Of a stretch of DNA of 43,306 nucleotides, positions 12,070-43,306 are shown piece after piece (position 1 is the stretch's first letter; each line of letters starts with the position of its first letter). The translations under genes were made by a program, and so were the position numbers. Source of the DNA: a virus (Duplodnaviria > Heunggongvirae > Uroviricota > Caudoviricetes); IMG/VR virus record IMGVR_UViG_3300025133_000025, one strand, 5' to 3'. The notes beneath the pieces were generated by a model. It had not been told where the DNA came from, did not search any database, and saw only the letters and a program-made list of their open reading frames with translations.

Positions 12070-12364
12070 CCTGCGGGTTTTCCTCGTCGTAGATATCTAA
12101 ATCTTGTGCAAGACCATCTAGATCATCGTCATCATTTTCAGGCTGCATTTTTTCAAGGATTCTAGCAATTGCCATTAATTGATCAACCGTCTTTGCACGA
12201 GCAGCGTACATCTTTGGAAGCTCTTTCATATATGCTGCAGCACTGCCAGGCTCAGAATCGATGCCTTGTTCAATGTAGCCAAGTACGACAGTTATTGATT
12301 CTCTATCTTCCTCAGCCTGCTTATAAGCCTGCTTAAGCAGTGCTTCAACATCAAGTTCATTCAT
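12056..12364 (-). CDS. Small acidic hypothetical protein
   Basis: 102 aa, D/E-rich (DDDDLDGLAQDLDIYDEE); ATGA-type overlap with the sigma-like gene upstream. Confidence 0.4.
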   Translation of the reverse strand: MNELDVEALLKQAYKQAEEDRESITVVLGYIEQGIDSEPGSAAAYMKELPKMYAARAKTVDQLMAIARILEKMQPENDDDDLDGLAQDLDIYDEENPQDEAL

Positions 12365-13116
12365 GGCGCTCTATAACCCTCTTCAAACCTTTTCAATGAA
12401 TAAGTATAGCGTACCTTGAGTTTGCTGATTGCGTTCGTTATCTTTTTAGTCTCTAGTCCCGTTATCTCTCTAAGATATACATATACAGCTCTCTTACTGA
12501 GTATTTCAAGGCCATCAGCCTCTTTGAACAACTCAATTACAGCAGAGATAACAATCTTATCATTCTCCTTTGCAGCTTCAGTAAGCCATCTTGTTTGCGC
12601 TTCAAATACAATAAATCTAACAAGCTCTGCCCGCTCAAACTCATCTTCACTTGTTGCAATCTGGTTCGTACCTTCATTTGCCCTTGTCTTAATGACATCG
12701 TCATAACAGAGATTGCGTGATGAATCGCGTTGCTGGCGCCTATAGGCTGCAATGAAAAAGTTCTTGGTAATCTGATTGAAGTATGAAAATGCCTTGGTGC
12801 CGCGGGTTGGATCAAACCTTACAAGTGCCTTGTAGATGTGAACGAGACACTCTTGCTCTGCTTGCTCAATATCATGAATGGTTCTTCGAAACTTATACAC
12901 ATTGATGACATTTTCAATTAGCTTTGAAACAGCTGGATGAATTTCTTTTGTGTAAATTCTTTCACGCTCTGATGGATTTTCGCTTGTATTAAAGCGAACA
13001 ATTGCAGCATCAACTTCTGGTCCAAAATATAATTTCTTTGTTGAATTCTTTTTACGCCTGCCCATCATCTTCTCCCATATTTGATGTAATATGCCCGCCA
13101 TCAATGACAATTTCAA
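12361..13116 (-). CDS. Putative phage late sigma factor (T4 gp55-like, sigma-70 region-2 related)
   Basis: 251 aa. The segment ECLVHIYKALVRFDPTRGTKAFSYFNQITKNFFIAAYRRQQR aligns by eye to T4 gp55 [35 protein letters not shown], the conserved sigma region-2-like core. Confidence 0.45.
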   Translation of the reverse strand: MKLSLMAGILHQIWEKMMGRRKKNSTKKLYFGPEVDAAIVRFNTSENPSERERIYTKEIHPAVSKLIENVINVYKFRRTIHDIEQAEQECLVHIYKALVRFDPTRGTKAFSYFNQITKNFFIAAYRRQQRDSSRNLCYDDVIKTRANEGTNQIATSEDEFERAELVRFIVFEAQTRWLTEAAKENDKIVISAVIELFKEADGLEILSKRAVYVYLREITGLETKKITNAISKLKVRYTYSLKRFEEGYRAP

Positions 13117-16325: not shown

Positions 16326-16372
16326 CCTGCCTCCAATATGTACATTGTATCACGCAGTTAAGGGCGTGGAAC

Positions 16373-16780: not shown

Positions 16781-16791
16781 CTCAACACTCT

Positions 16792-18048: not shown

Positions 18049-18280
18049 TTTCTGCGGCCCTTCGCATTGCGTCCCACTCCTGCCCAGCAGTAAACATCAT
18101 TGTCGCCAGCAGAGTGTTTGACAAGCCAAACTCATCAAACTCTTCAGCGACACTCATGACAAATTTGGCCTGCATGTCTGGGGCGTCCATGACCATTGTC
18201 TGGCCGCTCTTGAATTCTGCGTAAACTGCCCTCATGTTGCGGCACAATATTTCGTAAGCGATTACTTCTGCATTATCCAT
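18041..18280 (-). CDS. Hypothetical protein
   Basis: 79-aa ORF overlapping the GT2 start by 8 nt. Confidence 0.35.
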   Translation of the reverse strand: MDNAEVIAYEILCRNMRAVYAEFKSGQTMVMDAPDMQAKFVMSVAEEFDEFGLSNTLLATMMFTAGQEWDAMRRAAENG

Positions 18281-19094: not shown

Positions 19095-19097
19095 GCT

Positions 19098-26643: not shown

Positions 26644-26652
26644 ATTATACCA
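26644..26652 (-). promoter_or_regulatory. Extended -10 promoter element TGGTATAAT (minus strand) for the nuclease gene
   Basis: The reverse complement of 26644-26652 is TGGTATAAT, about 30 nt upstream of the ATG at 26614; it is the same extended -10 as in the cassette promoters but lacks the TTTCCG upstream box. Confidence 0.4.
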
Positions 26653-27810: not shown

Positions 27811-28076
27811 AAATCGTATGTCCTTCTATAATTCCATTGTATAACAAGCAGCCAGATGTGTAACAAGACTTTATTTTCATCAAAGTTTGTTTCCATATTC
27901 CTGTCAGTAATGCAACAATATAAAAAGTAAAGTAAAGCACTTCAATTATCTGTTGATTCATTATCCTTAAATACTAAATCTGAATTGGTATTACATCTAC
28001 TCACTTTATAGTTCCAACACTTTCAATTTGTATTACAATATCAATATGAATCTATTAACTCATAGGAGTCTTTAAA
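27811..28076. promoter_or_regulatory. AT-rich divergent intergenic control region
   Basis: 266 bp of about 25% GC between the leftward (27810) and rightward (28077) gene blocks, with multiple TATAAT/TACAAT-like hexamers on both strands. Confidence 0.45.
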
Positions 28077-31144: not shown

Positions 31145-31294
31145 GTCCTGAAACGGAGCAATTGCTGGCCATTTTAAAAGAAATTGCCAGTACGGGTGAT
31201 TTACAAGAAGTTTATGATATTATGCCTGACTGCGGAGCTCCGCTGGACGCGGCGGTATGGAATTGGATTGAGGCAGGTTGCCCAGACGCTGATT
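31141..31294 (+). CDS. Possible small ORF (GTG start)
   Basis: GTGA overlap with the preceding stop; 51 aa ending at the TAG at 31292-31294, convergent with the kinase operon end. Confidence 0.25.
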
Positions 31295-32600: not shown

Positions 32601-33349
32601 TAGCGGAAAAGTCCAATATCTGAGACAACAAGCGATTTGTCAGTCGGGCGCACCATTATATTGCCGTGGTGCAGATCGTCAGGTTCGATATTCTGAAAAT
32701 CGATTAAATCTTCCATGGCATGATAGAACGTCGCCACACCTATGAACTCTGCAGTTGCAGCGTCAACATTTGACGTAAGGCTATAATCTGGTAGTTTGCC
32801 GGTTATAATCGCTTTACGCAGTAATTTCTCCATTTTGATCGGGAGAGGTTCAAGATATTCCATAAGGGTAATGACAAGACCTGAGTCAGGAATAAGCCAC
32901 GCTGCAGAAGGTCGACCTGATTCAGGAATAAGCCACGCAGCATAGATTTTCGGGAGGTGGCGGGCAGTTCCAGGCTTCGACGTGCCCTTTGCACGGGCCA
33001 CAAGTTTGTAAGCATCCGGCTCATCCTCACTGATTTTCAACGCCATCCTCGGCCCATGATCGGGAACGAAGTCCCAAACAACACCATAGGACCCCTGTCC
33101 AAGTACATCCTTGATTGTTCCTGCAGGCAAAAGTTGCTCCAGAGCAGACCTTACGTCAGCAGTGAAAATGCTATCGCGCGGAATACCATCAACATGCCCG
33201 GGTTCTGCAAGGGTCGGATCAACATAGATTTCTTTATATGCAAGATTTTGCACATGACCTGTTCGGGCACCTTGTTGTTCAAGCAATTGAACCATTGTAG
33301 GAAGCAGATCAATCATATTTGTAGAAGTTACCGATGTCAGCAACAACAA
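32600..33349 (-). CDS. Protein-kinase-like fold protein K2 (paralog; ends right after the DIG)
   Basis: LGQGSYGVVWDF, RMALKI, HLPKIYAAW, ITLMEYLEPLP, DDLHHGNIMVRPTD, VVSDIGLFR-stop. Confidence 0.6.
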   Translation of the reverse strand: MLLLTSVTSTNMIDLLPTMVQLLEQQGARTGHVQNLAYKEIYVDPTLAEPGHVDGIPRDSIFTADVRSALEQLLPAGTIKDVLGQGSYGVVWDFVPDHGPRMALKISEDEPDAYKLVARAKGTSKPGTARHLPKIYAAWLIPESGRPSAAWLIPDSGLVITLMEYLEPLPIKMEKLLRKAIITGKLPDYSLTSNVDAATAEFIGVATFYHAMEDLIDFQNIEPDDLHHGNIMVRPTDKSLVVSDIGLFR

Positions 33350-34283
33350 GGTGCCCGTCAGATTTACGAACCATTACATTATCATCATGCAAGTCCTGCC
33401 AGCTTATGCCATATCTTTCATGAATCTCTCTCAGCGCTTCGTAAAATGGCAGGATACCGAGAGATTCAAGTTTATCGTCACCTTCATCACCCAGGTTCTT
33501 CCAATGCGCACGAGATGTTGGAGTTATAGTGAGCATCGCCCGGTTATAATCAAACACATCAAGTGAGTTGTGCATTCTTGGCCCGGGCCTAATTCCAACC
33601 TCCTTGGCGGAATCAATAATCGCATCACGCAATCGAGCAGCCTGAGCATCATCCTCAAAATCATGGGGAGCGTTGAGGTTGTATGTTCGGCGAAGTCCTG
33701 CCACAGCGTGAGGCAATCGCTCTACCAATTCCGGCCGTGTTTCTGTATCAAGCAGGCCGAGGGTGATTCGCATAAGCCGGCCAACACGTTTATCACTTTG
33801 CACAAATTCTTCCCATGACATCCTATTTTCAGGATCCCCGCGGACCATGGCTGTCTTAATATTCTTTGGAAGCGGCGACAGGATTTCCATAAGCGTTATA
33901 ACAGTTTCTGTATCGACAGACCAAATGCCATAGATTTTCGGGAGGTGGCGAATCAGTTCCCGCGGCGCTGTGTCGTAAATCTTTTGAATTTCTTCGTAGG
34001 CCTCCGGCTCATCCTCACTGATTTTCAATGCCATCATAGGTCCATCGTCAGGCTTGAAACGGTAGACAGTACCAAATGAACCAGCGCCGAGGCGGGTCTC
34101 TACAACCCCGGGTGGCAGCACGTCAGCAAGGGGCGCCGGGGCGAGCCGATGTCCCCGAAGAAGACGAAGATCAACAGATCCTGGACCCTTGTTAATTTCC
34201 AGTTCTGGTGACACAAAGATTTCCTTTGTTGAAGCTGCCTTTGCAGCTTCAACAACCAGGGTTTTCATTGTGGGAAATGTCAT
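33309..34283 (-). CDS. Protein-kinase-like fold protein K3 (paralog)
   Basis: LGAGSFGTVYRF (canonical GxGxFGxV), MMALKI, HLPKIYGIW, ITLMEILSPLP, QDLHDDNVMV, VVADIGNFYKYD-stop. Confidence 0.6.
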   Translation of the reverse strand: MTFPTMKTLVVEAAKAASTKEIFVSPELEINKGPGSVDLRLLRGHRLAPAPLADVLPPGVVETRLGAGSFGTVYRFKPDDGPMMALKISEDEPEAYEEIQKIYDTAPRELIRHLPKIYGIWSVDTETVITLMEILSPLPKNIKTAMVRGDPENRMSWEEFVQSDKRVGRLMRITLGLLDTETRPELVERLPHAVAGLRRTYNLNAPHDFEDDAQAARLRDAIIDSAKEVGIRPGPRMHNSLDVFDYNRAMLTITPTSRAHWKNLGDEGDDKLESLGILPFYEALREIHERYGISWQDLHDDNVMVRKSDGHLVVADIGNFYKYD

Positions 34284-35326
34284 ACAAATTCACCGATGTC
34301 AGACACAACAACGTCGTTTGTTCCAGCGCGCATCATGATGTTATCTGTTTTAAGGTCATGCCAATCAACATTATGCTTACTTGATATATATTCGAGCGTC
34401 GCGTAAAATGTACGAAGACCTGTTTTGGAGAGATAGTCAAAGTGCCTTTCCATTTCCCTTGAATCCGTTGGTTTCGATGTAGGAAGCATAACAGCTGTGG
34501 CAGCAGCAGAAGTCCAGGTGTGGGACATGAACTGCGTTAAGCGTTTAATCTCACTCGCATGCTCGGGATGTAGTTGAACAAGGAGATTGGCGATGAGTCC
34601 GGCGAAGGCCTCGGCTTGGGCCTGTGTTGGAGGTGTTTCTGAAAATCTCCAGCGTTTTCGAATTTGCGGAATGAGCTCATCTGCAACGACAGCATAGAGG
34701 TTTGGAATGATGCTGTGTAGTCGAAAAATTCCCTCGTAAACGTATGCTGCAATATTTGCATCATCAGCAATCCATTTTGACCAGTCAGGTTCATGACCAT
34801 GATATTCTTCATATTCAAAGAATCCGTCAAGGGCGTTCTGAATGGAGATGGGGAGTTTGCTGAGATGTTCCATCAAAATTACTGTTAGGGTTGTATTCTG
34901 CAGGGCCAATTCCCAGACGCCGAAAATCTTTGGGAGGTGCCTGCTGTGCAGTTCAGGGAGTTGCCCACGAATGGCATATACGTCGTCGTATGGTTTGGTA
35001 TCGTCGTCACCGATTTTCACAACCATAAGCGGTCCGAAATCCGGTTTAAATTCAAAAACAGAGCTGTGCGCTCCAGCACCTACATATTCACCCACATCAC
35101 CTGGTGGTAAAACGTTTTGTAAGGTCTGGAACACTATTTTATCAACCCTGGGAACACCCAGGTGGTCAGTGGCCCGATCGGCTGTGCGAAGTGCGTCCTG
35201 GATGCTAACAGTGGATTTCGTGCCAGCTGGACGGATCTCGTCGCGGATAATTTCCTTGACCGCAATTTTGTTGTTGTCACCCCTGGGCGACAGTTCTGTC
35301 AACAGGTTATGCATTGTGGGGAGCAT
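34280..35326 (-). CDS. Protein-kinase-like fold protein K4 (paralog; start uncertain)
   Basis: VGAGAHSSVFEF, LMVVKI, HLPKIFGVW, VILMEHLSKLP, HDLKTDNIMM (compare HRDLKPEN), VVVSDIGEFV-stop. The start was set at the Met (MLPTMHN) at 35326; the open frame continues to 35806, but that part translates tandem DNA repeats. Confidence 0.5.
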   Translation of the reverse strand: MLPTMHNLLTELSPRGDNNKIAVKEIIRDEIRPAGTKSTVSIQDALRTADRATDHLGVPRVDKIVFQTLQNVLPPGDVGEYVGAGAHSSVFEFKPDFGPLMVVKIGDDDTKPYDDVYAIRGQLPELHSRHLPKIFGVWELALQNTTLTVILMEHLSKLPISIQNALDGFFEYEEYHGHEPDWSKWIADDANIAAYVYEGIFRLHSIIPNLYAVVADELIPQIRKRWRFSETPPTQAQAEAFAGLIANLLVQLHPEHASEIKRLTQFMSHTWTSAAATAVMLPTSKPTDSREMERHFDYLSKTGLRTFYATLEYISSKHNVDWHDLKTDNIMMRAGTNDVVVSDIGEFV

Positions 35327-35402
35327 AACATATATAGTGTCCACGCTGCCATCTATGCCATGGTGTTTCGTGGCAACGATTTTTTCCAGAAATTTTTGTG
35401 CT

Positions 35403-35486
35403 GGCAGGGCTGTTCTGGTGGTGCAATCCTGGCAGAGCTGTTCTGGTGGTGCAATCCTGGCAGAGCTGTTCTGGTGGTGCAAATTC
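35403..35486. repeat. 28-bp tandem direct repeat x3 (GGCAGAGCTGTTCTGGTGGTGCAATCCT)
   Basis: Three head-to-tail copies; copy 1 has 1 mismatch and copy 3 diverges in its last 5 nt. Confidence 0.85.
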
Positions 35487-35698
35487 TCGAGAAGTTGTGC
35501 AGAGGCGTTGCGCGGCTTCGAGGCCTTTCTAAATCTCCAACAACCTATCTGAGGCCTTTCCGCAGGCCCTCGCCGGCCCGAGCTGGGTTGCGCCGACGGG
35601 CGGCTAGAAGGTCCCAACCTGGTATGGAAAGGCCCTGAGGGTGGTGTGGGGCAGGCCTTTCCATGGCGCCAGCACCAAGGCATGCCGTGCCGGCGAGG

Positions 35699-35806
35699 GC
35701 CTATCTTTCCGCAGGGCCTCCGACCACAAGATAGGTCTATCTTTCCGCAGGGCCTCCGACCACAAGATAGGCCTATCTTTCCGCAGGGCCTCCGACCACC
35801 AACCAC
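35699..35806. repeat. 36-bp tandem direct repeat x3 carrying the CTTTCCGCAG promoter upstream box
   Basis: GCCTATCTTTCCGCAGGGCCTCCGACCACAAGATAG x3. A fourth partial unit continues into promoter P1. Further degenerate copies of GGCCTTTCC(G/A) lie at 35554 and 35656. Confidence 0.85.
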
Positions 35807-35814
35807 GGTCTAGC

Positions 35815-35843
35815 TTTCCGCAGCACCACCGCCTTGGTATATT
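35815..35843 (+). promoter_or_regulatory. Cassette promoter P1: TTTCCG-N17-TATATT with TGG upstream (extended -10)
   Basis: gcTTTCCGcagcaccaccgcctTGGTATATT; 17-nt spacer; about 65 nt upstream of the ATG at 35910. Confidence 0.6.
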
Positions 35844-35909
35844 AATAACATAAGGGGCACGGACCAACCGGCAATAAAGCTGGAAGGCCGGCCCCCTGGA
35901 GATACTATC

Positions 35910-36299
35910 ATGGCCAAGTGGAACCCCAGCTCGAAGGTGAACCAGAGCCACCTCCTGACCATCCTGCGCCGCGGCGGCAACGAGTACCTCGACATCGTCG
36001 AGCGCCTCTCCCACCGGGCCCAGAAGCCCAACGGTCCTGACGGCCTGAACGTGACCATCATCCGGGATGCGATCGAGCAGGGCTACCTCGCTACGGATGC
36101 TGAGGCCATCCTGTTCCCCTCCGAGGAGAACGTGAACAAGGCCAAGGTGGCCGCGGCCGAGGATGCCAAGGCGACGATGATCGACAACCTCCTGGAGCTC
36201 GGGCAGCAGGGAGCGGTCAACGCGATGATCCAGGCGGGGACGGTCAGCGCGGAGCTGGTCGCCGGCATCGAGGCCAGCCGGGCCGCCGAAGAGGCCTAG
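35910..36299 (+). CDS. MAK-family small protein, paralog 1 (unknown function)
   Basis: 129 aa; MAKWNPSSKVNQSH N-terminus shared with 3 other cassette ORFs; SD GGAGA 9 nt upstream; about 65% GC. Confidence 0.65.
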   Translation: MAKWNPSSKVNQSHLLTILRRGGNEYLDIVERLSHRAQKPNGPDGLNVTIIRDAIEQGYLATDAEAILFPSEENVNKAKVAAAEDAKATMIDNLLELGQQGAVNAMIQAGTVSAELVAGIEASRAAEEA

Positions 36300-36307
36300 G
36301 CCTGACA

Positions 36308-36336
36308 GGGCCGGCGGGGGCAACACCCGCCGGCCC
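36308..36336 (+). terminator. GC-rich hairpin (11-bp stem) after cassette 1
   Basis: GGGCCGGCGGG-gcaacac-CCCGCCGGCCC; no U-tract, so this may be an intrinsic-terminator variant or a processing/recombination site. Confidence 0.4.
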
Positions 36337-36393
36337 ACCCGTCTGGAGCTGGTCTCACCGGTCCTCAACCTCTCGGCTCCTCCACCCGGAGGG

Positions 36394-36413
36394 CCGAAGG
36401 TCCGGACCTTCGG
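36394..36413. repeat. Perfect 20-bp palindrome CCGAAGGTCCGGACCTTCGG
   Basis: Exact inverted repeat with no loop, in the inter-cassette spacer. Confidence 0.8.
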
Positions 36414-36469
36414 AGCCTAGGCTTTCCGCAGCCCTGCTGCCTAGGCCTTACAGCGTGGGCTGAGCTGGC

Positions 36470-36498
36470 TTTCCGCGGCACCACTGAAATGGTACAAT
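36470..36498 (+). promoter_or_regulatory. Cassette promoter P2: TTTCCG-N17-TACAAT with TGG upstream
   Basis: ggcTTTCCGcggcaccactgaaaTGGTACAAT; a near-duplicate of P3 including the downstream AAGGACGG(A/T)GGCCA. Confidence 0.6.
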
Positions 36499-36556
36499 AT
36501 AATTACAAGGACGGAGGCCATCATACAGATGGGCTGCCGATCCGACTGGAGCCACC

Positions 36557-36967
36557 ATGGCCAAGAAGAACCGCTGGAACCCCTCCTCCAAGGTCAACTG
36601 CAACCACGTCACGGGCATGCTCGCCAAGGGCACGGCGGAGTACAAGGACTGGGTCGGCCGGGCCTTCTCCGTCCCCGCCGACGCCGACGCCGAGTACTTC
36701 GAGGACATCATCCGCGAGGGCCACGAGGACGGCTACCTCACCGATGAGAATGTGGACACCCTGCTGGGTACGGGCCCCTCGACGAAGGACGTCCAGGCCG
36801 CCGCCGCCGGCAACGCCCAGGCCCAGATGATCTCCGGGCTGGCCAACGCCGGGCAGCACAGCGCGGTGGCCTCCATGATCGGCACGACCGTCTCGCAGGA
36901 CCAGGTCGACCAGGTCTACGAGGCGCTCAACCTGGACTTCGCCGCCTTGACCGCGCCGGAGGCCTAG
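36557..36967 (+). CDS. MAK-family small protein, paralog 2
   Basis: 136 aa; MAKKNRWNPSSKVNCNHVTGMLAKG...; the overlapping +/- ORFs at 36489-37024 are rejected as GC artefacts. Confidence 0.65.
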   Translation: MAKKNRWNPSSKVNCNHVTGMLAKGTAEYKDWVGRAFSVPADADAEYFEDIIREGHEDGYLTDENVDTLLGTGPSTKDVQAAAAGNAQAQMISGLANAGQHSAVASMIGTTVSQDQVDQVYEALNLDFAALTAPEA

Positions 36968-37049
36968 CCGGCCCAACCCTTCGCCCCGAGCACCATCGAA
37001 GCCATCGGCTACTAGCACCACCACAGTCGGCCTAGCAGGGAGGAGACTC

Positions 37050-37088
37050 TCTGTTAGGCCGGCCTAACAGCGACTGAGCAGCTCAGTC
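37050..37088. repeat. Two adjacent perfect palindromes (CTGTTAGGCCGGCCTAACAG; CGACTGAGC-a-GCTCAGTCG)
   Basis: A 20-bp exact palindrome followed directly by a 19-bp one, in the spacer after cassette 2. Confidence 0.8.
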
Positions 37089-37097
37089 GATTTAAGG

Positions 37098-37126
37098 TTT
37101 CCGCCGCACCACCGACTTGGTATAAT
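37098..37126 (+). promoter_or_regulatory. Cassette promoter P3: TTTCCG-N17-TATAAT with TGG upstream
   Basis: ggTTTCCGccgcaccaccgactTGGTATAAT. Confidence 0.6.
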
Positions 37127-37187
37127 TTAGGTATAAGGACGGTGGCCACCAAAACGGTGAATCACTGCTCCCGTTGGAGAATGAGAC

Positions 37188-37622
37188 ATGGCCAAGAAGA
37201 ACCGCTGGAATCCTGCCTCGCGTGTCAACTGCAACCACCTCACGGGGATGCTCCTGAAGGGCGACGACGCGTACCGGGACTTCGTCTCCCGCGCCTTCTC
37301 CGCCGCCCCCGAGGAGTTCGAGGCGATCGTCCAGGAGGGCCTCGACTGGGGGTACTTCACCTCGGACAACCGGGACGCCTTGCTCGGCACCGGCCCCTCC
37401 ACGGCCGCGATCTCGGAAGCCGCGGCGGGCAACGCCCAGGCGACGATGATCTCCGGCCTCGCCAACGCCGGCCAGCACAGCGCGGTGGCCTCCCTCGTCG
37501 CCGCCGGGACCTGCACCCAGGACCAGGTCGACCAGGTGTACGGCGCCTTGGAGCTGGACTACGCGGCCCTGATCGCCCCGCCGGCCCCCAAGGCGCCCAA
37601 GGCCAAGAAGGCCGCCAAGTAG
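37188..37622 (+). CDS. MAK-family small protein, paralog 3
   Basis: 144 aa; MAKKNRWNPASRVNCNHLTGMLLKG...; SD GGAGA upstream; Lys-rich C-terminal tail PKAPKAKKAAK. Confidence 0.65.
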   Translation: MAKKNRWNPASRVNCNHLTGMLLKGDDAYRDFVSRAFSAAPEEFEAIVQEGLDWGYFTSDNRDALLGTGPSTAAISEAAAGNAQATMISGLANAGQHSAVASLVAAGTCTQDQVDQVYGALELDYAALIAPPAPKAPKAKKAAK

Positions 37623-37642
37623 CCTAGCCGGCTGCCACTGAC

Positions 37643-37667
37643 GGACCGGCCCCTCCTGGGCCGGTCC
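37643..37667 (+). terminator. GC-rich hairpin (10-bp stem) after cassette 3
   Basis: GGACCGGCCC-ctcct-GGGCCGGTCC; followed by GGCCTTACAGCG and GGCCTAACAGCG half-site copies. Confidence 0.4.
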
Positions 37668-37767
37668 ACCGGCTGGGCCTTACAGCGTGAGCTGCGCGAA
37701 CGCTGATAGTCCTCTCTGAGCCGGCCTAACAGCGCGGGCTGAGCCCGCCGTCACAGTGCCACGAGGC

Positions 37768-37796
37768 TTTCCGCAGCAGGCCAACCATGGTATAAT
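37768..37796 (+). promoter_or_regulatory. Cassette promoter P4: TTTCCG-N17-TATAAT with TGG upstream
   Basis: ggcTTTCCGcagcaggccaaccaTGGTATAAT. Confidence 0.6.
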
Positions 37797-37829
37797 TTAG
37801 GTACCGGAATTGACCGGCTGGAGAACCCC

Positions 37830-38531
37830 ATGATCGATGCACTTACAATCTTCAACGCTTCCACGGATCGGCGGACCTACTGGCGCCTGAATCGTGAGGC
37901 GGGCGCTGCTACCCTGGATGAGGCGATCGCCTTGACCTGGGAGGACTTCTACCCGTACGAGCACATGCCCCAGGATGACGCCATCAACATGGATGGCATG
38001 GACGACATCTTCGAGGTCGGTGGACCGGAGAACATGGAGATCGTGACCCACGGCGGCGGGTGGTTCACCGTGGAGTACAAGAACGGTTGCTCCCAGGAGG
38101 AGGACACCCGCGACCACCCGGAGGAGTGGAACCAGTGGGAACAGGTCACCCGCCTCGTCAGCCAGGACTACCTCACCTTGGAGCGTGGGTTCACCGTCCT
38201 GGACGATACCCCGGCCGGCCACGGCGACGAGTTCGGTCGGATCTACTGGGTGATCGGCGACACCACGGAGCCGGGGACGGTCGATCGGAAGCCCAAGGTG
38301 CTCACCGGTGATGAGGTCATCGAGCGGTCGATCAAGGAGGGCATCCGGTCCGACCTCGAGTTGGAACAGCAGGTCCTGCCGCCGGTCGATCACCGGTGGA
38401 ACGACATGATGATGCAGAGCGCCGCCCTGGACATCCTGGCTGGTGTGACCATGGCCAGCATCCGCTACCACAGCTACGACGCCTGGGAGGATGTGGAGAT
38501 GCTGACCCGCCACTTCCACGGCAAGATCTAG
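37830..38531 (+). CDS. Acidic hypothetical protein (233 aa) in the cassette array
   Basis: SD GGAGAA upstream; D/E/W-rich; no family recognised; the antisense ORF 37797-38555 is rejected. Confidence 0.6.
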   Translation: MIDALTIFNASTDRRTYWRLNREAGAATLDEAIALTWEDFYPYEHMPQDDAINMDGMDDIFEVGGPENMEIVTHGGGWFTVEYKNGCSQEEDTRDHPEEWNQWEQVTRLVSQDYLTLERGFTVLDDTPAGHGDEFGRIYWVIGDTTEPGTVDRKPKVLTGDEVIERSIKEGIRSDLELEQQVLPPVDHRWNDMMMQSAALDILAGVTMASIRYHSYDAWEDVEMLTRHFHGKI

Positions 38532-38576
38532 AAGCCTCACCAGCTGGCTCAGCACCTGCGGCCTGGGGTAGCCTGG

Positions 38577-38598
38577 GCCGTAAGGCCGGCCTTACGGC
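38577..38598. repeat. Perfect 22-bp palindrome GCCGTAAGGCCGGCCTTACGGC
   Basis: Exact inverted repeat centred on GGCCGGCC, in the spacer after cassette 4. Confidence 0.8.
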
Positions 38599-38653
38599 GA
38601 AGAACAGCTCAGCCCCTCCCTTTCCTCCATACTTGGAAGCACAGACCGGCATG

Positions 38654-38682
38654 TTTCCGATGCATGACCGCCATGGTATAAT
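38654..38682 (+). promoter_or_regulatory. Cassette promoter P5: TTTCCG-N17-TATAAT with TGG upstream
   Basis: gTTTCCGatgcatgaccgccaTGGTATAATatattAGGAACCCC; a near-duplicate of P8. Confidence 0.6.
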
Positions 38683-38763
38683 ATATTAGGAACCCCGGCC
38701 GGTTGAATCAATGCCATGGCAGATGGCTGTCATGGCAACTGGCCACCTACTACAGGAAGTGAC

Positions 38764-39591
38764 ATGAACTGGAATAGCATCGCAAATGACCTTGACATCT
38801 GGAACAGTGGTGGGAAGATGAAGGCGACGATCTCGCTCTTCTTGAACAGCCCCGGCATCAGCCACGCCCTGTACATCATCTTCCTCGCTGTCTACGGTGG
38901 CTGGAACATGTTGTCGACCGCCGCGCTCCGCCAGGAGCCTGGCCCGTCGGCGTCCCAGAAGTACGAGTTGACCGACTACGTCAACAAGGACACCATCCTC
39001 AGCATCGTCAACGACGCCCGTCAGAAGGCCTGGAGCGATCTGGAGATCAGTGGTATCATGCCCGAGTGGAAGGTGGGCGGCATGGCGGAGCCGGCCTGCG
39101 CGATCCGGCCGGGCGAGGACAATCCAACCCTTGTCTTCAACAAGATCCAGTTCATCAAGCAGGTGCGTGAGGCCCACGGCTTGGGACTGAAGGAAGCGAA
39201 GAAGGCTGTGGAAGACATGTTGGTGCAGGCTTCCGGGCTCGTCGCCTTCCGTGGAGTCCGTGGGAAGCTCATTGAGCACATGCCGACGACTTTCCTCCAC
39301 ATCACGAACGTCCACATCAATCTCGACGAGCTCGTCTCCCTGCCCATCAACTATCGGCCGCATGCCTACGAAGGAGAGCGCAGGTCGCGTGACAACTCGA
39401 CCAGCGATGACACCTTCTACACGGTGGGGTGGTACTGGGAGAACGTGCTCTCCTTCGAGAACAAGCGACTCTTCCGGAGCTTGGACCACTTCCGAAGCAC
39501 GTCCATCGCAGTGAAGCGGCGCGCCCAGTACCTCAACCACGAGGGTGCCTGGGTTTACGTCGATGATGTCGCCACCGAAATCCTTGCCTGA
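38764..39591 (+). CDS. Membrane-anchored protein with a ribosomal bL12 (L7/L12) C-terminal-domain-like segment
   Basis: The start was chosen at MNWNS (SD AGGAAG 5 nt upstream); the longer frame starts at 38716. TM helix [45 protein letters not shown] aligns to E. coli bL12 [26 protein letters not shown] (GLGLKEAK identical). Confidence 0.55.
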   Translation: [275 protein letters not shown]

Positions 39592-39613
39592 GTGAAGGGG
39601 TTCCTCGGCGAGG

Positions 39614-39653
39614 GGCCCTGGGCCTGCTGTCTTCGGATGGCAGGCCCAGGGCC
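39614..39653 (+). terminator. GC-rich hairpin (14-bp stem) after cassette 5
   Basis: GGCCCTGGGCCTGC-tgtcttcggatg-GCAGGCCCAGGGCC. Confidence 0.45.
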
Positions 39654-39693
39654 TATTAGCGCTTCGCGCCGAAGGCCCCAAGACGCAGCTGGC

Positions 39694-39722
39694 TTTCCGC
39701 CGATCTACCGTGTTTGTATAAT
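39694..39722 (+). promoter_or_regulatory. Cassette promoter P6: TTTCCG-N17-TATAAT (TG adjacent)
   Basis: ggcTTTCCGccgatctaccgtgtttgTATAAT; downstream ATAAGGGGCGC resembles the P1 leader. Confidence 0.55.
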
Positions 39723-39743
39723 AATACTATAAGGGGCGCAGGT

Positions 39744-39759
39744 GCTGAAATATTTCAGC
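39744..39759. promoter_or_regulatory. Perfect 16-bp palindrome GCTGAAATATTTCAGC in the P6 leader (operator-like or leader hairpin)
   Basis: Exact inverted repeat about 15-30 nt downstream of the predicted TSS and 25 nt upstream of the SD; a second CTGAAA...TTTCAG palindrome lies at 40265. Confidence 0.45.
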
Positions 39760-39794
39760 AGTTGTTATAAACAGCCCCGACATGGAGAGAAGAC

Positions 39795-40190
39795 ATGGCT
39801 AAGAACCGCTGGAACCCTTCGAGCAAGGTCAACTGCAATCACATCACCGGGATGATCGCCAAGGGTGACGCCGAGTACAAGGACTGGGTCGCCCGGATCT
39901 TCGGCTCGAACAACGACACCTTCGCCGACCTGGTGACCGAGGGCAAGACCGCGGGCTACCTCACCGCCGAGAACTCCAACTTCCTGCTGGGCACGTCGGC
40001 CAGCACCCCGGCTGTGAAGGCGGCCGCCGCGGCCGACGCCAAGCGCAGCATGGTCATCGGCCTGCTGGGTGCGGGACAGGACACGGCGGTCGATTCGCTG
40101 ATCCAGTCCGGGCAGGTGGACCAGGAGTTCGTCGACAGCATCCGCGCGGAAATCGTGGATGCTGAGGAAGCTCGCCGCTCGTCGAAGTAG
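39795..40190 (+). CDS. MAK-family small protein, paralog 4
   Basis: 131 aa; MAKNRWNPSSKVNCNHITGMIAKGDAEYKDWVARIFG...; SD GGAGAG upstream. Confidence 0.65.
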   Translation: MAKNRWNPSSKVNCNHITGMIAKGDAEYKDWVARIFGSNNDTFADLVTEGKTAGYLTAENSNFLLGTSASTPAVKAAAAADAKRSMVIGLLGAGQDTAVDSLIQSGQVDQEFVDSIRAEIVDAEEARRSSK

Positions 40191-40198
40191 AGAAACGC

Positions 40199-40226
40199 CA
40201 GGCCGGGGGCTTCGGTCCCCGGCCGT
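40199..40226 (+). terminator. Hairpin GGCCGGGGGC-TTCG-GTCCCCGGCC (UUCG-type loop) after cassette 6
   Basis: 8-10-bp GC stem immediately after the stop; a CCGTACGG palindrome and a GCTGCTTTT run follow. Confidence 0.5.
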
Positions 40227-41238
40227 ACGGCGCTGCTTTTCAAAGCTCTTCGGCGCAGCCAGCGCTGAAAGACCGGTCTTTCAGAGAAAGCAGCTGAGCC
40301 CGCAGTCCTGGCCACAGCTCCCTGCCTGGCAACATTCCGACGCTGTCCAGCTTTCGGCAGCCTACATCACCTTCCGATGCGGCTCAGCACTGCAATGTGC
40401 TGAAAAGACTGCAATTTTGCTGCCCACTGCCCTGCCGATGCTGAATGTGAGATTCGAGGCATCTGCTCTTCGCTGCAGCAATCATATGAATACTATGCCC
40501 ATCCCGGTTTTTCACTATACCCGCCGGGATAGAAAGCAGGCTGGCCCATGCGCTGGCCTCGGCAGCCCATCGATGCAGCGGAAGCAGACGGTGTGGCGCT
40601 ATGATATCATTCCCAGCAAAACGCCACCAGACCTGCCGTGCCGCGACGCTCTGCGCTCTCCCTTCGCAACTCTGCTCCCGGCTTCTGGCGCTGCGCTCTG
40701 TAGTTGCGGGCACCACTCCACCCATTCTTGTTAGGCTTGAAAACCTTATCAGGCCATCTCGTCAGCTCCCATTTTGTGAGTTTGCATATGAATCAGTAGC
40801 GCCAGCTGTTCTTCCCTATTTGCAATGTGAAGAGCTGCTCAGTGTTGTCCGAGCTGTAGACATTTTGTTGTGTGATGTTAAAGGCTTAGGGCTCTGCTGC
40901 TGTCCCTGCAGCGTTGCTCCACCCCGCAGCGCCAAAGCAGGGAAACAGCATATGCTGATATCATAAAGCACACAGAGCTTACAGCACCAGCAGAGAAACG
41001 AGGTTTAGGAGTTGGGAGTTGTGGTATAGAACCTATCCTATTGGAGTCTATTGGTTTATCTGTTAGTTAGTTGTTGGTTCTGATACCATCAAAGGCACGT
41101 TGTATTGTAGCAAGAGTATATGAATGAGGCTGCCCAGCATTTCCGGCTGACCAAATTGGTAGGCTGCAGGGCAAGCCGCGTGAGTTCGGACTGTTGGATT
41201 GCAGTCCTGATGATATCTTCTGGCAACATCCACAGTAA
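40227..41238. other. About 1-kb apparently non-coding region with palindromes (candidate structured RNA or decayed cassettes)
   Basis: Only low-complexity R/S/P/C-rich ORFs on either strand (40159-40734, 40601-40966, 40384-40725). Contains the CTGAAAGACCGGTCTTTCAG palindrome and several short hairpins. GC is intermediate. Confidence 0.4.
40265..40284. repeat. Perfect 20-bp palindrome CTGAAAGACCGGTCTTTCAG
   Basis: Exact inverted repeat; shares CTGAAA/TTTCAG arms with the 39744 palindrome. Confidence 0.8.
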
Positions 41239-41266
41239 TTTCCGTGTATGAATTCACTGTTATAAA
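41239..41266 (+). promoter_or_regulatory. Cassette promoter P7: TTTCCG-N16-TATAAA with TGT upstream
   Basis: aaTTTCCGtgtatgaattcacTGTTATAAAat; AT-rich context. Confidence 0.5.
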
Positions 41267-41304
41267 ATAGAAATAGGTGAGAATGTTCCACCGAGGAGAT
41301 AAGC

Positions 41305-41604
41305 ATGAGCGATAACAGGGACTTCCCAACGATTCGTCGCCTGATTGGTGTCATTGAGGACGCATCTTCTGCTGAGCAGATTATCCTCAACAACAGGGTT
41401 TTGGGCGATCACCTCGGCGGAATTATCCGCATTCGGAATGAGGGCGTGATCAGGAATCTCTACTTTGGCAACGCATCCTCCGAAGGCGCCCTCGATGCTT
41501 TGATTGCGCTTGTTGAAGCTATTCGATCCGAAGCTGCCCACGAATTGGCTGGGCAGGGTGTGGATGTCAGGCCGGTTTCAGATGCAACGAAGATTTCCGA
41601 CTAA
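41305..41604 (+). CDS. Hypothetical protein (99 aa)
   Basis: SD GAGGAG 7 nt upstream; the stop overlaps the -35 box of P8. Confidence 0.55.
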   Translation: MSDNRDFPTIRRLIGVIEDASSAEQIILNNRVLGDHLGGIIRIRNEGVIRNLYFGNASSEGALDALIALVEAIRSEAAHELAGQGVDVRPVSDATKISD

Positions 41605-41622
41605 CAACCGCCATGGTATAAT
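41594..41622 (+). promoter_or_regulatory. Cassette promoter P8: TTTCCG-N17-TATAAT with TGG upstream
   Basis: aTTTCCGactaacaaccgccaTGGTATAATatacctAGGAACCCCC; a duplicate of the P5 module. Confidence 0.6.
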
Positions 41623-41657
41623 ATACCTAGGAACCCCCAACCCAAGCGAGTACTAAC

Positions 41658-42032
41658 ATGGCCGCCCGCACACTTTCCGACCGCTTCTCAGAGTTCATCC
41701 ACTTCGAGTACGGTGATGGCAACGGACGACTGAACCTGCTCGAAGAGGCCATCAAGCGAGTAGATGAGCCCCATTACGCGCAGAACAACTCACACTACTA
41801 TGTGCGACCCGACGGATCATGGGGAGCTCGCCCGCCGCTCTCGATGGGGCCGCGCGACTCGTACGAGTCGCGCGGCGGGATGCCGGCTTTGACATACGAT
41901 CCGAAGTATGTCTTCTGGCCCGAGGACGGATTCGTGTACGTGCGGTCGCGTGAGGCTGCTATCGAGCTCGTGACGATCATGGTCCTCCACAACGCCCGCA
42001 TCGCGGTGCGGGTGCTGGAAATCATGTCCTGA
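41658..42032 (+). CDS. Hypothetical protein (124 aa), GC-rich
   Basis: ORF directly downstream of P8; about 58% GC; weak SD. Confidence 0.5.
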   Translation: MAARTLSDRFSEFIHFEYGDGNGRLNLLEEAIKRVDEPHYAQNNSHYYVRPDGSWGARPPLSMGPRDSYESRGGMPALTYDPKYVFWPEDGFVYVRSREAAIELVTIMVLHNARIAVRVLEIMS

Positions 42033-42331
42033 TGAACTATAATCCACTGAACGAAAACCCGGAGTACTGGCGCATGGATAGTGTGAGACTTCGAAGAGGC
42101 GATTTGGTAAGCGTTACTTACAACGGACGCAATGGATCAACTGTAGGGTTTTTTAAGGCAGAAATCCTTAGCGTATTTAAGAATACTTCTCTGGTTCGCT
42201 TTGAAGATAAGATTGCTCCGGACTATCCAGACGACACTTGGAACCCAGACCTTGGCTACCACTTTGTCGATTCAGACCGAGGCTATGTGGACGAAGTTAC
42301 GAACGATTCACTCATCCGCGTTGGGCTATAA
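42032..42331 (+). CDS. Hypothetical protein (99 aa)
   Basis: TGATG stop/start overlap with the preceding gene. Confidence 0.5.
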   Translation: MNYNPLNENPEYWRMDSVRLRRGDLVSVTYNGRNGSTVGFFKAEILSVFKNTSLVRFEDKIAPDYPDDTWNPDLGYHFVDSDRGYVDEVTNDSLIRVGL

Positions 42332-42335
42332 GATT

Positions 42336-42482
42336 ATGGATAACTGGGGAAGTTACGTCGCGCATTACAAGGATGGAACAACCTGGATTTTTGCGGCTCG
42401 CCATTGGCGCGAAGCATGGGAACGAGCAACATACCATTACCCCGACCTTGATAAAGTAGAAACAAAGAAGGAAGCACAATGA
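42336..42482 (+). CDS. Small hypothetical protein (48 aa)
   Basis: ATG 4 nt after the preceding stop; the longer listed frame from 42201 overlaps 42032-42331, so it is trimmed here; weak RBS. Confidence 0.35.
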   Translation: MDNWGSYVAHYKDGTTWIFAARHWREAWERATYHYPDLDKVETKKEAQ

Positions 42483-42790
42483 ACCGTCGCAAGTTTTTTG
42501 CCCAGCTTAAGAAGCATGGGTTCTCTAAGTCCGACCTACAGATGACCCGAGTTGGACTCACCTATGATAGGCCTCATAACGGAGGCCGCATCAGGGTAAC
42601 GGTCCCTAAATCTCATAGCGAAACCTTTACCATTCTTGGTCCTGTTAACTACAGCGGAATCTTTGTCAATGGTGATCTAAAGCAGTGTAACTGGGGCAGC
42701 GTCGTTAAGCCTTCCGAATTCGGAATGGAAAATATGCTGGAGGTTTGTATCGCACTTATCTCTGGCGACTTGGCGATGGTAGAGGCATGA
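42479..42790 (+). CDS. Hypothetical protein (103 aa)
   Basis: SD AAGGAAG upstream; ATGA overlap with the preceding stop. Confidence 0.5.
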   Translation: MNRRKFFAQLKKHGFSKSDLQMTRVGLTYDRPHNGGRIRVTVPKSHSETFTILGPVNYSGIFVNGDLKQCNWGSVVKPSEFGMENMLEVCIALISGDLAMVEA

Positions 42791-42839
42791 CACATCCGCC
42801 AGGAAGAGATTCTGACTGAAGAGTCTCAGCGGTTCGAAA

Positions 42840-42878
42840 GGCGAAACAGCAAGGTGATTTTGCCTTTGCTGTTTCGCC
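42840..42878. terminator. Hairpin between convergent genes (about 15-bp stem, 1 bulge)
   Basis: GGCGAAACAGCAAGG-tgattttg-CCTTTGCTGTTTCGCC, between the plus-strand block end (42790) and the minus-strand gene end (42936). Confidence 0.5.
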
Positions 42879-42935
42879 TTATAAAGCTTGTGAAGTTTTT
42901 GCCCCGAAGGGCTGAGTTCACTACTCAAACTTTCC

Positions 42936-43265
42936 CTACCACGACGATGAATAGATAATCTCATATCCATCTTGGAGATACTTTTCGGCCTTGGACAGAA
43001 AATCCCAAGTATCTTCGTTCTGCTCAGGACGCGATTCGCCCCAGAAAAACCCTGCGGCTTTGGTCAAGCCGAGATATTCATCGGTCAACTTATCGAGGTC
43101 TGCCCTGGTAAGCCTCAACTCAATACAGTTGAAATCCCACTTGCCACCGCGCCGAGCATAAAGATCGGCCATCCAACCTTCAAGATTTGCGTGCTTACGC
43201 CAGTACATAATTTCGGTATCTTCTTCGCCGCTCTTTCGAGCGAAAGCATATTGATCAAGTCCCAT
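42936..43265 (-). CDS. Hypothetical protein (109 aa)
   Basis: SD AGGAGA 6 nt upstream (reverse complement of 43268-43275). Confidence 0.55.
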   Translation of the reverse strand: MGLDQYAFARKSGEEDTEIMYWRKHANLEGWMADLYARRGGKWDFNCIELRLTRADLDKLTDEYLGLTKAAGFFWGESRPEQNEDTWDFLSKAEKYLQDGYEIIYSSSW

Positions 43266-43306
43266 CTCTATCTCCTATTCAACAGGGTTCTTCTCTCACG
43301 TGACGT

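What the first reader, a model, noticed from the sequence alone, without database searches (positions are those of the whole stretch)
35815..41622. Conserved promoter class (G)CTTTCCG(C)NG - 17 nt - TGGTATAAT: extended -10 plus a non-sigma70-like upstream box
Eight plus-strand copies were found: P1 35815, P2 36470, P3 37098, P4 37768, P5 38654, P6 39694, P7 41239, P8 41594.

The extended -10 matches the sigma70 TGnTATAAT consensus almost perfectly. The upstream hexamer TTTCCG matches TTGACA at only 3 of 6 positions.

The upstream box is conserved over about 11 nt (GCTTTCCGCAG). That is more than sigma70 region 4 would demand. It suggests recognition by a dedicated phage or host factor, by analogy with the T4 MotA box at -30.

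The extended -10 alone also occurs on the minus strand at 26644-26652, upstream of the nuclease gene.
Basis: seen in the sequence. Interest (0 to 1): 0.65.

Follow-up and report, generated by a model that had tools for sequence, protein, structure and literature searches.

The report
Phage promoter class with odd -35
Seven near-identical promoters with a perfect bacterial -10 element but an invariant non-standard upstream box (TTTCCG) each drive one small gene in an unusually G+C-rich block of an uncultured marine phage, which points to a promoter class read with a specificity determinant that is not yet identified.

Summary
cTTTCCG-N17-TATAAT occurs at 35815, 36470, 37098, 37768, 38654, 39694 and 41594, all on the + strand and each in front of one small gene. 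Six are exact matches against 0.03 expected by chance. P7 (41239) does not fit the class.

The motif is also present ten times in two diverged metagenomic relatives (35-56% protein identity). TTTCCG, the 17-nt spacer, C-21, G-13 and TATAAT are kept across lineages. The canonical TGn is not kept.

The class is confined to a cassette array of genes with GC3 0.77-0.98, inside a roughly 42% G+C phage of about 175 kb. Each cassette is promoter, 5' stem-loop plus Shine-Dalgarno site, orphan gene, then G+C-rich hairpins.

The same phage carries a perfect TTGACA-16-TATAAT promoter elsewhere, so TTTCCG is not simply the host's -35 consensus.

My best reading is sigma70-type promoters whose -35 position holds a class-specific box read by a dedicated factor, as in T4 middle promoters. 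No such factor was identified, so this step is inference. The cassette architecture resembles T4-type PeSL elements. I rate it a new variant of a known kind, of moderate interest.

The parts
35814..35843 (+). P1: CTTTCCGCAG box, 17-nt spacer, TGG + TATATT. The predicted transcription start is A at about 35850. It drives paralog A1 (35910-36299).
   Evidence: 40.9 bits
36469..36498 (+). P2: CTTTCCGCGG box, 17-nt spacer, TGG + TACAAT, with an overlapping TATAAT 5 nt downstream. It drives paralog A2 (36557-36967).
   Evidence: 34.1 bits
37097..37126 (+). P3: GTTTCCGCCG box, 17-nt spacer, TGGTATAAT. It drives paralog A3 (37188-37622).
   Evidence: 44.5 bits
37767..37796 (+). P4: CTTTCCGCAG box, 17-nt spacer, TGGTATAAT. 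It drives gene B (37830-38531). Orthologous promoters are L001 2776 and L003 310.
   Evidence: 32.1 bits
38653..38682 (+). P5: GTTTCCGATG box, 17-nt spacer, TGGTATAAT. It drives gene C (38764-39591), which contains a segment like the ribosomal protein L7/L12 C-terminal domain.
   Evidence: 37.3 bits
39693..39722 (+). P6: CTTTCCGCCG box, 17-nt spacer, TTGTATAAT. It drives paralog A4 (39795-40190).
   Evidence: 36.4 bits
41593..41622 (+). P8: ATTTCCGACT box, 17-nt spacer, TGGTATAAT. The box overlaps the stop codon of ORF 41305-41604. It drives gene E (41658-42032).
   Evidence: 33.4 bits
41239..41266 (+). It is not a member of the class by the matrix. It may be a divergent promoter for ORF 41305-41604 (GC3 0.57).
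35556..35786 (+). Copies of CTTTCCGCAG without a -10, at 35556, 35705, 35741 and 35777. The last three lie in a 36-bp tandem repeat (35698-35805), each inside the inverted repeat CCTATCTT..AAGATAGG. The repeat number varies between assemblies (3 here, 1 in L005).
36422..36446 (+). Box without a -10 (CTTTCCGCAGCCCTGCTGCCTAGGC), 48 nt upstream of the P2 box. It sits in the loop of a CCTAGGC/GCCTAGG hairpin. It is conserved in L001 at 3455.
37048..37097 (+). A representative stem-loop module between a gene and the next promoter: the palindrome CTCTGTTAGGCCGGCCTAACAG followed by CGACTGAGCAGCTCAGTCG. Related GGCCTTACAGCG palindromes lie at 36441, 37673, 37720 and 38577-38600. None has a U tract.
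35910..42032 (+). An array of eight monocistronic genes: A1, A2, A3, B, C, A4, D and E. Seven of them sit behind class promoters. GC3 is 0.84-0.98 for A1 to A4, B and C, 0.77 for E, and 0.57 for D, against 0.27-0.37 in structural genes.
12361..13116 (-). A phage-encoded sigma-like protein with Sigma70_r2 above the Pfam cut-off and a C-terminal helical domain with a motif resembling region 4.2. It is a candidate alternative reader, but not shown to be linked to this class.
26644..26652 (-). TGGTATAAT without the TTTCCG box, 29 nt upstream of the exonuclease gene start at 26614. It belongs to a different, box-less promoter type.

Best explanation
The seven sites are genuine sigma70-family-type promoters. 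Each heads a self-contained expression cassette made of five parts:
- the promoter;
- an A/T-rich discriminator, with a start at an A about 7 nt after the -10;
- a 5' stem-loop that begins at about +5 and leaves a free UGGAG Shine-Dalgarno site;
- one small orphan gene;
- one or more very stable G+C-rich hairpins.

The cassettes form a hyperplastic, G+C-rich block of an uncultured phage of about 175 kb.

The consensus -10 (with TG or G-13) is read by region 2 of a primary-type sigma in host RNA polymerase. This step is inferred from the sequence.

The canonical -35 hexamer is replaced by an invariant, asymmetric box, cTTTCCG at -36 to -30. It is backed by G-27/C-26 and ACCG at -22 to -19, at a fixed 17-nt distance from the -10.

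I take the box to be the class determinant. I think it is read by a dedicated protein that occupies the place of sigma region 4, that is, a phage-encoded or virion-delivered activator or sigma-appropriation-type factor. That would set these genes apart in time from genes behind canonical TTGACA promoters. This step is inference, and no such factor has been identified.
For: Non-randomness and restriction to the island.

Placement. Every site lies 27-75 nt upstream of a + strand ORF, in an intergenic gap behind the previous gene's hairpins.

Conservation. There are 10 further copies in the relatives L001 and L003, whose proteins are only 35-56% identical to the window's. TTTCCG, the 17-nt spacer, C-21 and TATAAT are invariant, while the flanking sequence has diverged.

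The box is not the host -35 consensus. A perfect TTGACA-16-TATAAT followed by a Shine-Dalgarno site lies in L076. L076 is 100% identical to the window over their 1144-nt overlap, so it is the same phage.

Features that suggest a dedicated reader:
- There is no A/T-rich UP element upstream of the box.
- The box is single and asymmetric, which suits a monomeric reader positioned by RNA polymerase.
- L001 lacks a canonical TGn, so its -10 alone would be weak.
- The box recurs on its own in five places followed by CAG, and one of these is conserved in L001.

Precedent. T4 middle promoters combine a sigma70 -10 with a MotA box that replaces the -35 (PMC2988021).
Against: - No transcription start or expression data exist, and the host is unknown.
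- No MotA, AsiA, helix-turn-helix or other DNA-binding family was found in about 40 window ORFs. Only 53 kb of about 175 kb could be inspected.
- The box keeps T-35, T-34 and C-31 of TTGACA. With a consensus -10 plus TGn, the window's promoters could work with the host holoenzyme alone.
- Uniformity within each genome points to concerted evolution among cassettes: TGGTATAAT throughout the window, and (A/T)TGTATAAT, mostly followed by TAT, throughout L001. That inflates apparent conservation inside one genome.
- If these are the very first genes expressed, a phage-made factor would not yet be available.
Confidence: 0.5

Rival explanations
1. The host primary-sigma holoenzyme acts alone. The promoters fire immediately after infection through the consensus -10 and the TG/G-13 element, with TTTCCG serving as a weak -35 hexamer. 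On this view the box's invariance comes from other causes. One is homogenisation by recombination between cassettes, as proposed for PeSL elements. Another is that the box doubles as the target of a later shut-off protein.
For: - The box matches TTGACA at 3 of 6 positions, including T-35 and T-34, and the spacer is the optimal 17 nt.
- Six of seven window sites carry TGnTATAAT.
- Spacer and -10 flank variants are lineage-specific and uniform within a genome.
- Gene order is shuffled between relatives, and the repeat copy number is variable.
- PeSL cassettes in T4-type phages are strong host-type early promoters paired with stem-loops (PMC2839356).
Against: - Six positions are invariant in 17 of 17 sites across three diverged loci. 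Three of them (T-33, C-32, G-30) go against the sigma70 preference, although the phage uses TTGACA elsewhere.
- The L001 sites lack a canonical TGn.
- There is no UP element, unlike the strong early promoters of T4 and PeSL.
- Concerted evolution does not explain identity between lineages whose spacers differ.
Confidence: 0.3
2. The phage's own sigma-like protein (12361-13116, - strand) reads both elements, with its C-terminal domain on TTTCCG and its region 2 on TATAAT. The island would then be a sigma-switch class.
For: - Sigma70_r2 scores 32.6 bits against a cut-off of 24.
- The family of 26 homologues has a conserved C-terminal motif, YIREITGLSSKQLSIVLSSLKK, that resembles the region 4.2 helix-turn-helix.
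- The AlphaFold model has two helical domains, and nearly all top Foldseek hits are sigma factors, although the best E-value is only 0.017.
- A strict -35/-10 pair with a fixed spacer is typical of two-domain sigma factors.
Against: - TATAAT is the signature of primary sigma factors. The protein's nearest families are ECF-type, whose -10 elements are different.
- The gene lies inside the structural-gene block, as late sigma factors do, whereas the island looks like an early or accessory region.
- Region 4 is not detected by any profile above threshold.
Confidence: 0.12
3. The repeats are not promoters. On this view they are cassette-junction or recombination sites, or replication or packaging repeats, that only resemble a promoter.
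For: The conserved intergenic modules flank shuffled cassettes. Box-only copies and tandem repeats cluster at the left edge of the island, next to a conserved non-coding element.
Against: Many independent features point to promoters: a perfect TATAAT embedded in roughly 65% G+C DNA, an A/T-rich discriminator, a fixed 17-nt spacing, a single orientation that matches the genes, and a position 27-75 nt upstream of start codons preceded by Shine-Dalgarno sites.
Confidence: 0.03

Closest known systems
T4 middle promoters (MotA/AsiA sigma appropriation)
   Same: Both combine a host sigma70-type -10, often with TGn, with a phage-specific asymmetric box that overlaps the -35 position and replaces the -35 hexamer. 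In both phages canonical -35/-10 promoters are present elsewhere in the genome (PMC2988021).
   Different: The box here is cTTTCCG(c)nG at -36 to -27, not (a/t)(a/t)TGCTT(t/c)a. Its spacing to the -10 is rigid. There are additional conserved spacer blocks (GC at -27/-26, ACCG at -22 to -19). No motA or asiA homologue was found in the window, and the phage is not T4-type beyond its gp25/gp6-like baseplate proteins.
PeSL cassettes (promoter-early stem-loop) of T4-type hyperplastic regions
   Same: Both are conserved composite modules of a stem-loop plus a promoter. They lie in the intergenic gaps of a block of small orphan genes, each gene is transcriptionally insulated, and gene content and order differ between relatives (PMC2839356 and PMC4122927).
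   Different: PeSL promoters match the sigma70 consensus, including the -35, and have an A/T-rich upstream region. These have a non-consensus -35 box and G+C-rich surroundings. The stem-loops here are sequence-conserved palindromes of the type CGCTGTAAGGCCGGCCTTACAGCG. Recombination or minicircle formation was not tested.
Extended -10 (TGn) promoters that do not depend on a -35 element
   Same: Six of the seven window promoters carry TGnTA(T/C)A(A/T)T.
   Different: The -35 region is as invariant as the -10 rather than free to vary. In the relative L001 the TG is displaced to -14/-13, so TGn is not the conserved feature.
T4 early promoters with consensus beyond the hexamers
   Same: In both cases phage promoters show extra conserved positions beyond what host promoters show. 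The -10 plus TGn is close to consensus (PMC2988021).
   Different: T4 early promoters have excellent -35 matches and UP elements. These have neither.

Membership tests
sigma70-type (-35/-10) bacterial promoter | A -10 hexamer close to TATAAT, upstream of and co-oriented with a gene | tested here: met
   TATAAT in 5 of 7 sites, with TATATT and TACAAT in the other two. All sites lie 27-75 nt before an ATG with a Shine-Dalgarno site.
sigma70-type (-35/-10) bacterial promoter | A -35 hexamer resembling TTGACA (at least 4 of 6), 16-18 nt upstream | tested here: not met
   TTTCCG matches at 3 of 6 positions with a 17-nt spacer. The consensus scan did not list any of the seven sites.
sigma70-type (-35/-10) bacterial promoter | Transcripts start 6-8 nt downstream of the -10 | not testable with these tools
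   No RNA data are available. A conserved T-1/A+1 lies 7 nt after the -10.
Extended -10 promoter | TG at -15/-14 | tested here: inconclusive
   TG at -15/-14 is present in 6 of 7 window sites, 0 of 7 in L001 and 1 of 3 in L003. G-13 is conserved in 16 of 17 sites.
T4 MotA-dependent middle promoter | MotA box (a/t)(a/t)TGCTT(t/c)a centred near -30 | tested here: not met
   The box is cTTTCCGynG, with no TGCTT core (the definition is from PMC2988021).
T4 MotA-dependent middle promoter | Phage encodes MotA and AsiA | tested here: inconclusive
   No hit was found in about 40 window ORFs with Pfam, PHROGs or NCBIfam.
PeSL cassette | A conserved composite of stem-loop and promoter in the intergenic gaps of an ORFan-rich variable region | tested here: met
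PeSL cassette | Promoter matching the sigma70 consensus (-35 and -10) with an A/T-rich upstream tract | tested here: not met
   The -35 position holds TTTCCG, and positions -55 to -37 are G+C-rich with no A-tract.
PeSL cassette | Mediates recombination (insertions, deletions, minicircles) between cassettes | not testable with these tools
   There is only indirect evidence. Gene order and content differ between the window, L001 and L003, and the copy number of the 36-bp repeat differs.
Promoter of a phage-encoded sigma factor | Phage encodes a sigma factor with DNA-reading regions 2 and 4 | tested here: inconclusive
   Region 2 is met (Pfam 32.6 bits against a cut-off of 24). Region 4 is suggested only by a motif, a two-domain model and weak Foldseek and NCBIfam hits.

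The most novel reading that the evidence does not exclude
cTTTCCG, together with the ACCG spacer block, is the DNA site of a previously undescribed factor that replaces or remodels sigma region 4 in an uncultured marine phage lineage. This could be a MotA/AsiA-like appropriation system of independent origin, or a phage sigma with a TATAAT-reading region 2. The factor would switch host RNA polymerase onto a codon-distinct (GC3 above 0.84), transcriptionally insulated cassette array.
Probability: 0.35. Interest if true: 0.7.

Novelty: new variant of a known kind. Interest (0 to 1): 0.55.

Why it matters
Sigma appropriation has been worked out mainly in T4. A second promoter class with the same logic (host -10 plus a foreign box at -35) but an unrelated box would suggest that the strategy arose more than once, and it would give a defined DNA bait for finding the factor.

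The class is exactly co-extensive with genes whose GC3 is 0.77-0.98, inside a 42% G+C phage. That links a promoter class to a separate codon regime, which is unusual and unexplained.

The cassette layout of hairpin, promoter and orphan gene extends the PeSL idea of modular shuffling outside the T4-type phages.

The limits are that the phage is uncultured, the host is unknown, and nothing is known about expression.

Tried and rejected
Searches for relatives or the motif elsewhere:
- A nucleotide search of the island against 50,697 phage records found no match. A protein search with paralog A2 also found none.
- The IMG/VR collection was scanned with the paralog profile and two DNA patterns. This gave no relatives and 8 single chance hits.
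- A metagenome scan gave 57 single hits and a scan of 185,579 species genomes gave 51 single hits. Both are about the chance level. No locus had a second relaxed match, and no taxon was enriched. The class is therefore not a host chromosomal or prophage motif that I could find, and no host could be named.

Searches for function:
- Rfam found nothing credible.
- The B protein found only itself in the protein database.

Searches for other promoter types:
- There is no T4-late-type TATAAATA motif.
- The enriched heptamer TTGATGA turned out to be a common coding word, not a promoter.

Literature:
- A search for TTTCCG promoters returned only irrelevant papers.
- Nothing was found on Mel-JY01, the nearest phage by baseplate protein at 32% identity.

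Ideas rejected:
- An archaeal TATA/BRE reading was considered and rejected, because the phage encodes a sigma factor and a bL12-like domain and uses Shine-Dalgarno sites.
- A Bacteroidetes-type promoter (TTTG / TAnnTTTG) was rejected because the sequences do not fit.

Full report
**Context**

The window is part of an uncultured phage.
- Recognisable genes include gp25-like and gp6-like baseplate proteins, glycosyltransferases, a PD-(D/E)XK exonuclease, an RNase T-like exonuclease and kinase-like proteins.
- The nearest sequenced phages share only 31-32% identity in a baseplate protein: Microcystis phage Mel-JY01 and Flavobacterium phage immuto.
- Nothing similar exists at the nucleotide level in 50,697 phage records.
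- Identical proteins occur on metagenomic contigs of 170-179 kb. Several carry JGI names that I recall as marine viromes, which I did not verify.
- G+C is about 42% across most of the window but rises to 59-66% between about 35 and 41 kb.

**The observation**

TTTCCG-N(15-22)-TATAAT gives six exact matches, all on the + strand, against 0.03 expected. P1 has the same box and spacing with TATATT. P2 has TACAAT in register. All seven sites have a 17-nt spacer.

A less biased test gives the same answer. Every + strand TATAAT in the G+C-rich block of this phage and of two relatives belongs to such a promoter: 18 of 18, of which 3 are overlapping second hexamers. None of the 29 TATAAT hexamers in the other 46.6 kb of this phage has the box.

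A 30-position matrix scores the seven sites at 32-44 bits. Nothing else in 53 kb exceeds 10 bits, which is the level reached by shuffled sequence. It has a 16-nt spacer to TATAAA and none of the spacer blocks.

**Conservation elsewhere**

The four paralogous genes behind P1, P2, P3 and P6 belong to a family with only eight members among 5.8 billion proteins. Four are these genes. The other four lie on two short metagenomic contigs, L001 and L003.

Proteins on those contigs are 35-56% identical to the window's. Even so, the contigs carry seven and three copies of TTTCCG-N17-TATAAT, each ahead of a small + strand gene.

The 17-site matrix shows these features:
- TTTCCG, C-21, and five of the six TATAAT positions (T-12, A-11, A-9, T-7 invariant; A-8 in 16 of 17 and T-10 in 16 of 17) are conserved.
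- G-13 is present in 16 of 17 sites.
- ACCG at -22 to -19, G-27/C-26 and C-36 are preferred.
- The discriminator is A/T-rich.
- T-1/A+1 lies 7 nt after the -10.

Sequence upstream of -37 is not conserved and is not A/T-rich. Orthologous promoters of gene B in the three loci keep just these blocks while their flanks have diverged.

The canonical extended -10 is a feature of this phage only. In L001 the TG sits at -14/-13.

The spacer and -10 flank are uniform within each genome but differ between genomes. That indicates concerted evolution among cassettes. Only the invariants shared across lineages can be taken as constrained.

**What the sites belong to**

Each promoter heads a monocistronic unit.
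- If transcription starts at the conserved A, five of the seven 5' leaders (P1, P2, P3, P6 from about +5; P5 from +9) fold into a stable stem-loop, while P4 forms only a short stem and P8 almost none. A UGGAG-type Shine-Dalgarno site precedes six of the seven genes; the P8 gene (41658) has none.
- Each gene is followed by one or more very stable G+C-rich hairpins without U tracts.
- These include sequence-conserved palindromes of the type CGCTGTAAGGCCGGCCTTACAGCG, with symmetrical variants.

The genes have no recognisable function.
- PHROGs, Pfam and NCBIfam give no hits apart from a short segment resembling the ribosomal protein L7/L12 C-terminal domain in gene C.
- A confident model of the paralog family has no structural neighbour.

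Their GC3 is 0.84-0.98 (0.77 for gene E), against 0.27-0.37 for structural genes. The relatives show the same bias.

Gene content and order differ between the three loci. A 36-bp repeat carrying the box varies from one to three copies between assemblies that are 99.9% identical.

This is the architecture described for PeSL cassettes in the hyperplastic regions of T4-type phages (PMC2839356, PMC4122927). The difference is that PeSL promoters match the sigma70 consensus and have A/T-rich upstream tracts.

**Who reads the box**

L076 is 100% identical to the window over a 1144-nt overlap and extends it by 10 kb. It contains a perfect TTGACA-16-TATAAT, 22 nt before a gene with an AAGGAGA Shine-Dalgarno site. 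About 0.004 such sites would be expected by chance. The polymerase that serves this phage therefore recognises the canonical -35, and TTTCCG is not simply the host's version of it.

Several features favour a monomeric reader held in register by RNA polymerase, in the place of sigma region 4:
- The box is asymmetric and single.
- It is as invariant as the -10.
- It sits at a rigid distance from the -10.
- It is not accompanied by a UP element.
- It is needed in a lineage that lacks TGn.

This is the logic of T4 middle promoters (PMC2988021).

The box followed by CAG also occurs five times without a -10. In each case it lies in or next to the loop of an inverted repeat. One copy (36422) is conserved in L001. 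Autonomous copies fit a DNA-binding factor better than they fit a promoter hexamer.

Evidence against a dedicated factor:
- No MotA, AsiA or helix-turn-helix family appeared in about 40 window ORFs.
- Only 53 of about 175 kb could be read.
- The box retains three TTGACA positions, so the host holoenzyme alone remains a serious rival.

The phage does encode a sigma-like protein (12361-13116, - strand). It has Sigma70_r2 above the Pfam cut-off, a conserved C-terminal motif resembling region 4.2, a two-domain model, and mostly sigma factors among its weak fold hits. However, its nearest relatives are ECF-type, it sits among structural genes, and TATAAT is the hallmark of primary sigma factors. 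I rank it third.

**Distribution**

The motif, including its spacer CCG, was not found in multiple copies anywhere else. This covers IMG/VR, the metagenome collection and 185,579 species genomes. All hits were single and at about the chance rate. The class is therefore specific to this rare phage lineage. No host could be inferred.

**Verdict**

Membership of the MotA family is not supported.

I rate it a new variant of a known kind, namely phage promoter classes with a host -10 and a private upstream determinant, arranged as PeSL-like cassettes. The coincidence with an extreme GC3 island is the most surprising aspect.

Noticed in passing
window 35910-40190 and 41658-42032, compared with the rest of the window: Genes behind the class promoters have GC3 of 0.77-0.98, against 0.27-0.37 in structural genes of the same phage. 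The relatives L001 and L003 show the same bias (GC3 0.73-0.98). The cause is unknown. Possibilities are host-matched early codon usage, resistance of the mRNAs to nucleases, or foreign origin.
   Followed up: partly
window 35481-35700; L001 17-250: A non-coding element left of P1 is better conserved between the lineages (80% nucleotide identity over 138 nt) than the coding regions (65-69%). It contains GGCCTTTCC motifs in both orientations and a long-range inverted repeat, AGGCCCTCGCCGGCCCG / CGTGCCGGCGAGGGCCT (35564-35580 and 35686-35702). It has no Rfam match. It could be a structured RNA, a replication origin or a protein-binding platform.
   Followed up: partly
window 35401-35484: Three tandem copies of a 28-bp unit (CTGGCAGAGCTGTTCTGGTGGTGCAATC) lie in the divergent gap between the kinase-like operon and P1. 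They are not present in the part of L001 that could be compared.
   Followed up: no
window 40200-41250; L001 5030-5777: About 1 kb has no conserved ORF: the ORF translations look like junk and tblastn against L001 is negative. It does contain conserved patches, including TGATATCA palindromes (GCTATGATATCATTCCCAGC and GCTGATATCATAAAGCA) and TTCCG-like boxes. It may be a replication origin or a non-coding RNA region that closes the island.
   Followed up: partly
window 16344-16371 (-), 18352-18379 (-), 28012-28039 (+); also 27836-27864 (-) and 25706-25734 (-): A possible second promoter type lies outside the island. GTTCCA-N17-TACAAT occurs three times against 0.09 expected, and GTTACA-N17-TACAAT occurs twice. 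Two of the GTTCCA sites lie just upstream of gene starts (16325 on the - strand and 28077 on the + strand). These share T-34, T-33, C-31 and the 17-nt spacer with the island class.
   Followed up: partly
L076 6423-6450 (+), about 3.5 kb beyond the right end of the window, on the window's - strand: A perfect TTGACA-16-TATAAT consensus promoter, 22 nt before a HAD-family gene with an AAGGAGA Shine-Dalgarno site. It lies in a cluster of small genes that includes an RNA ligase, an AAA_33 kinase and a metallophosphatase.
   Followed up: yes
window 31293-35326 (-): Four consecutive paralogous proteins of 435, 249, 324 and 348 aa have weak protein-kinase-like hits. They are transcribed divergently from the island. 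This recalls early phage kinases that modify host proteins, but their function was not tested.
   Followed up: no
window 38764-39591 (+), residues 126-151: The product of island gene C contains a short segment matching the C-terminal domain of ribosomal protein L7/L12 (Pfam 32.2 bits against a cut-off of 25.9). This is the part of bL12 that contacts translational GTPases.
   Followed up: no
window 15200-19100 (-): A second, milder G+C-rich block (50-55% G+C, GC3 0.60-0.70) contains a cytidylyltransferase-like gene and genes of unknown function. It has no TTTCCG-class promoters.
   Followed up: no
window 35698-35805 compared with L005: The 36-bp repeat carrying the box is present three times in the window but once in an assembly that is 99.9% identical to the window (a 72-nt offset). 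It is therefore a variable-number repeat within the phage population.
   Followed up: yes
L076, L077, L078 and L079, compared with window 42035-43306: The last 1.27 kb of the window recurs at 99.5-100% identity in contigs whose further flanks differ from one another. This suggests mosaic relatives or rearrangements to the right of the island.
   Followed up: no
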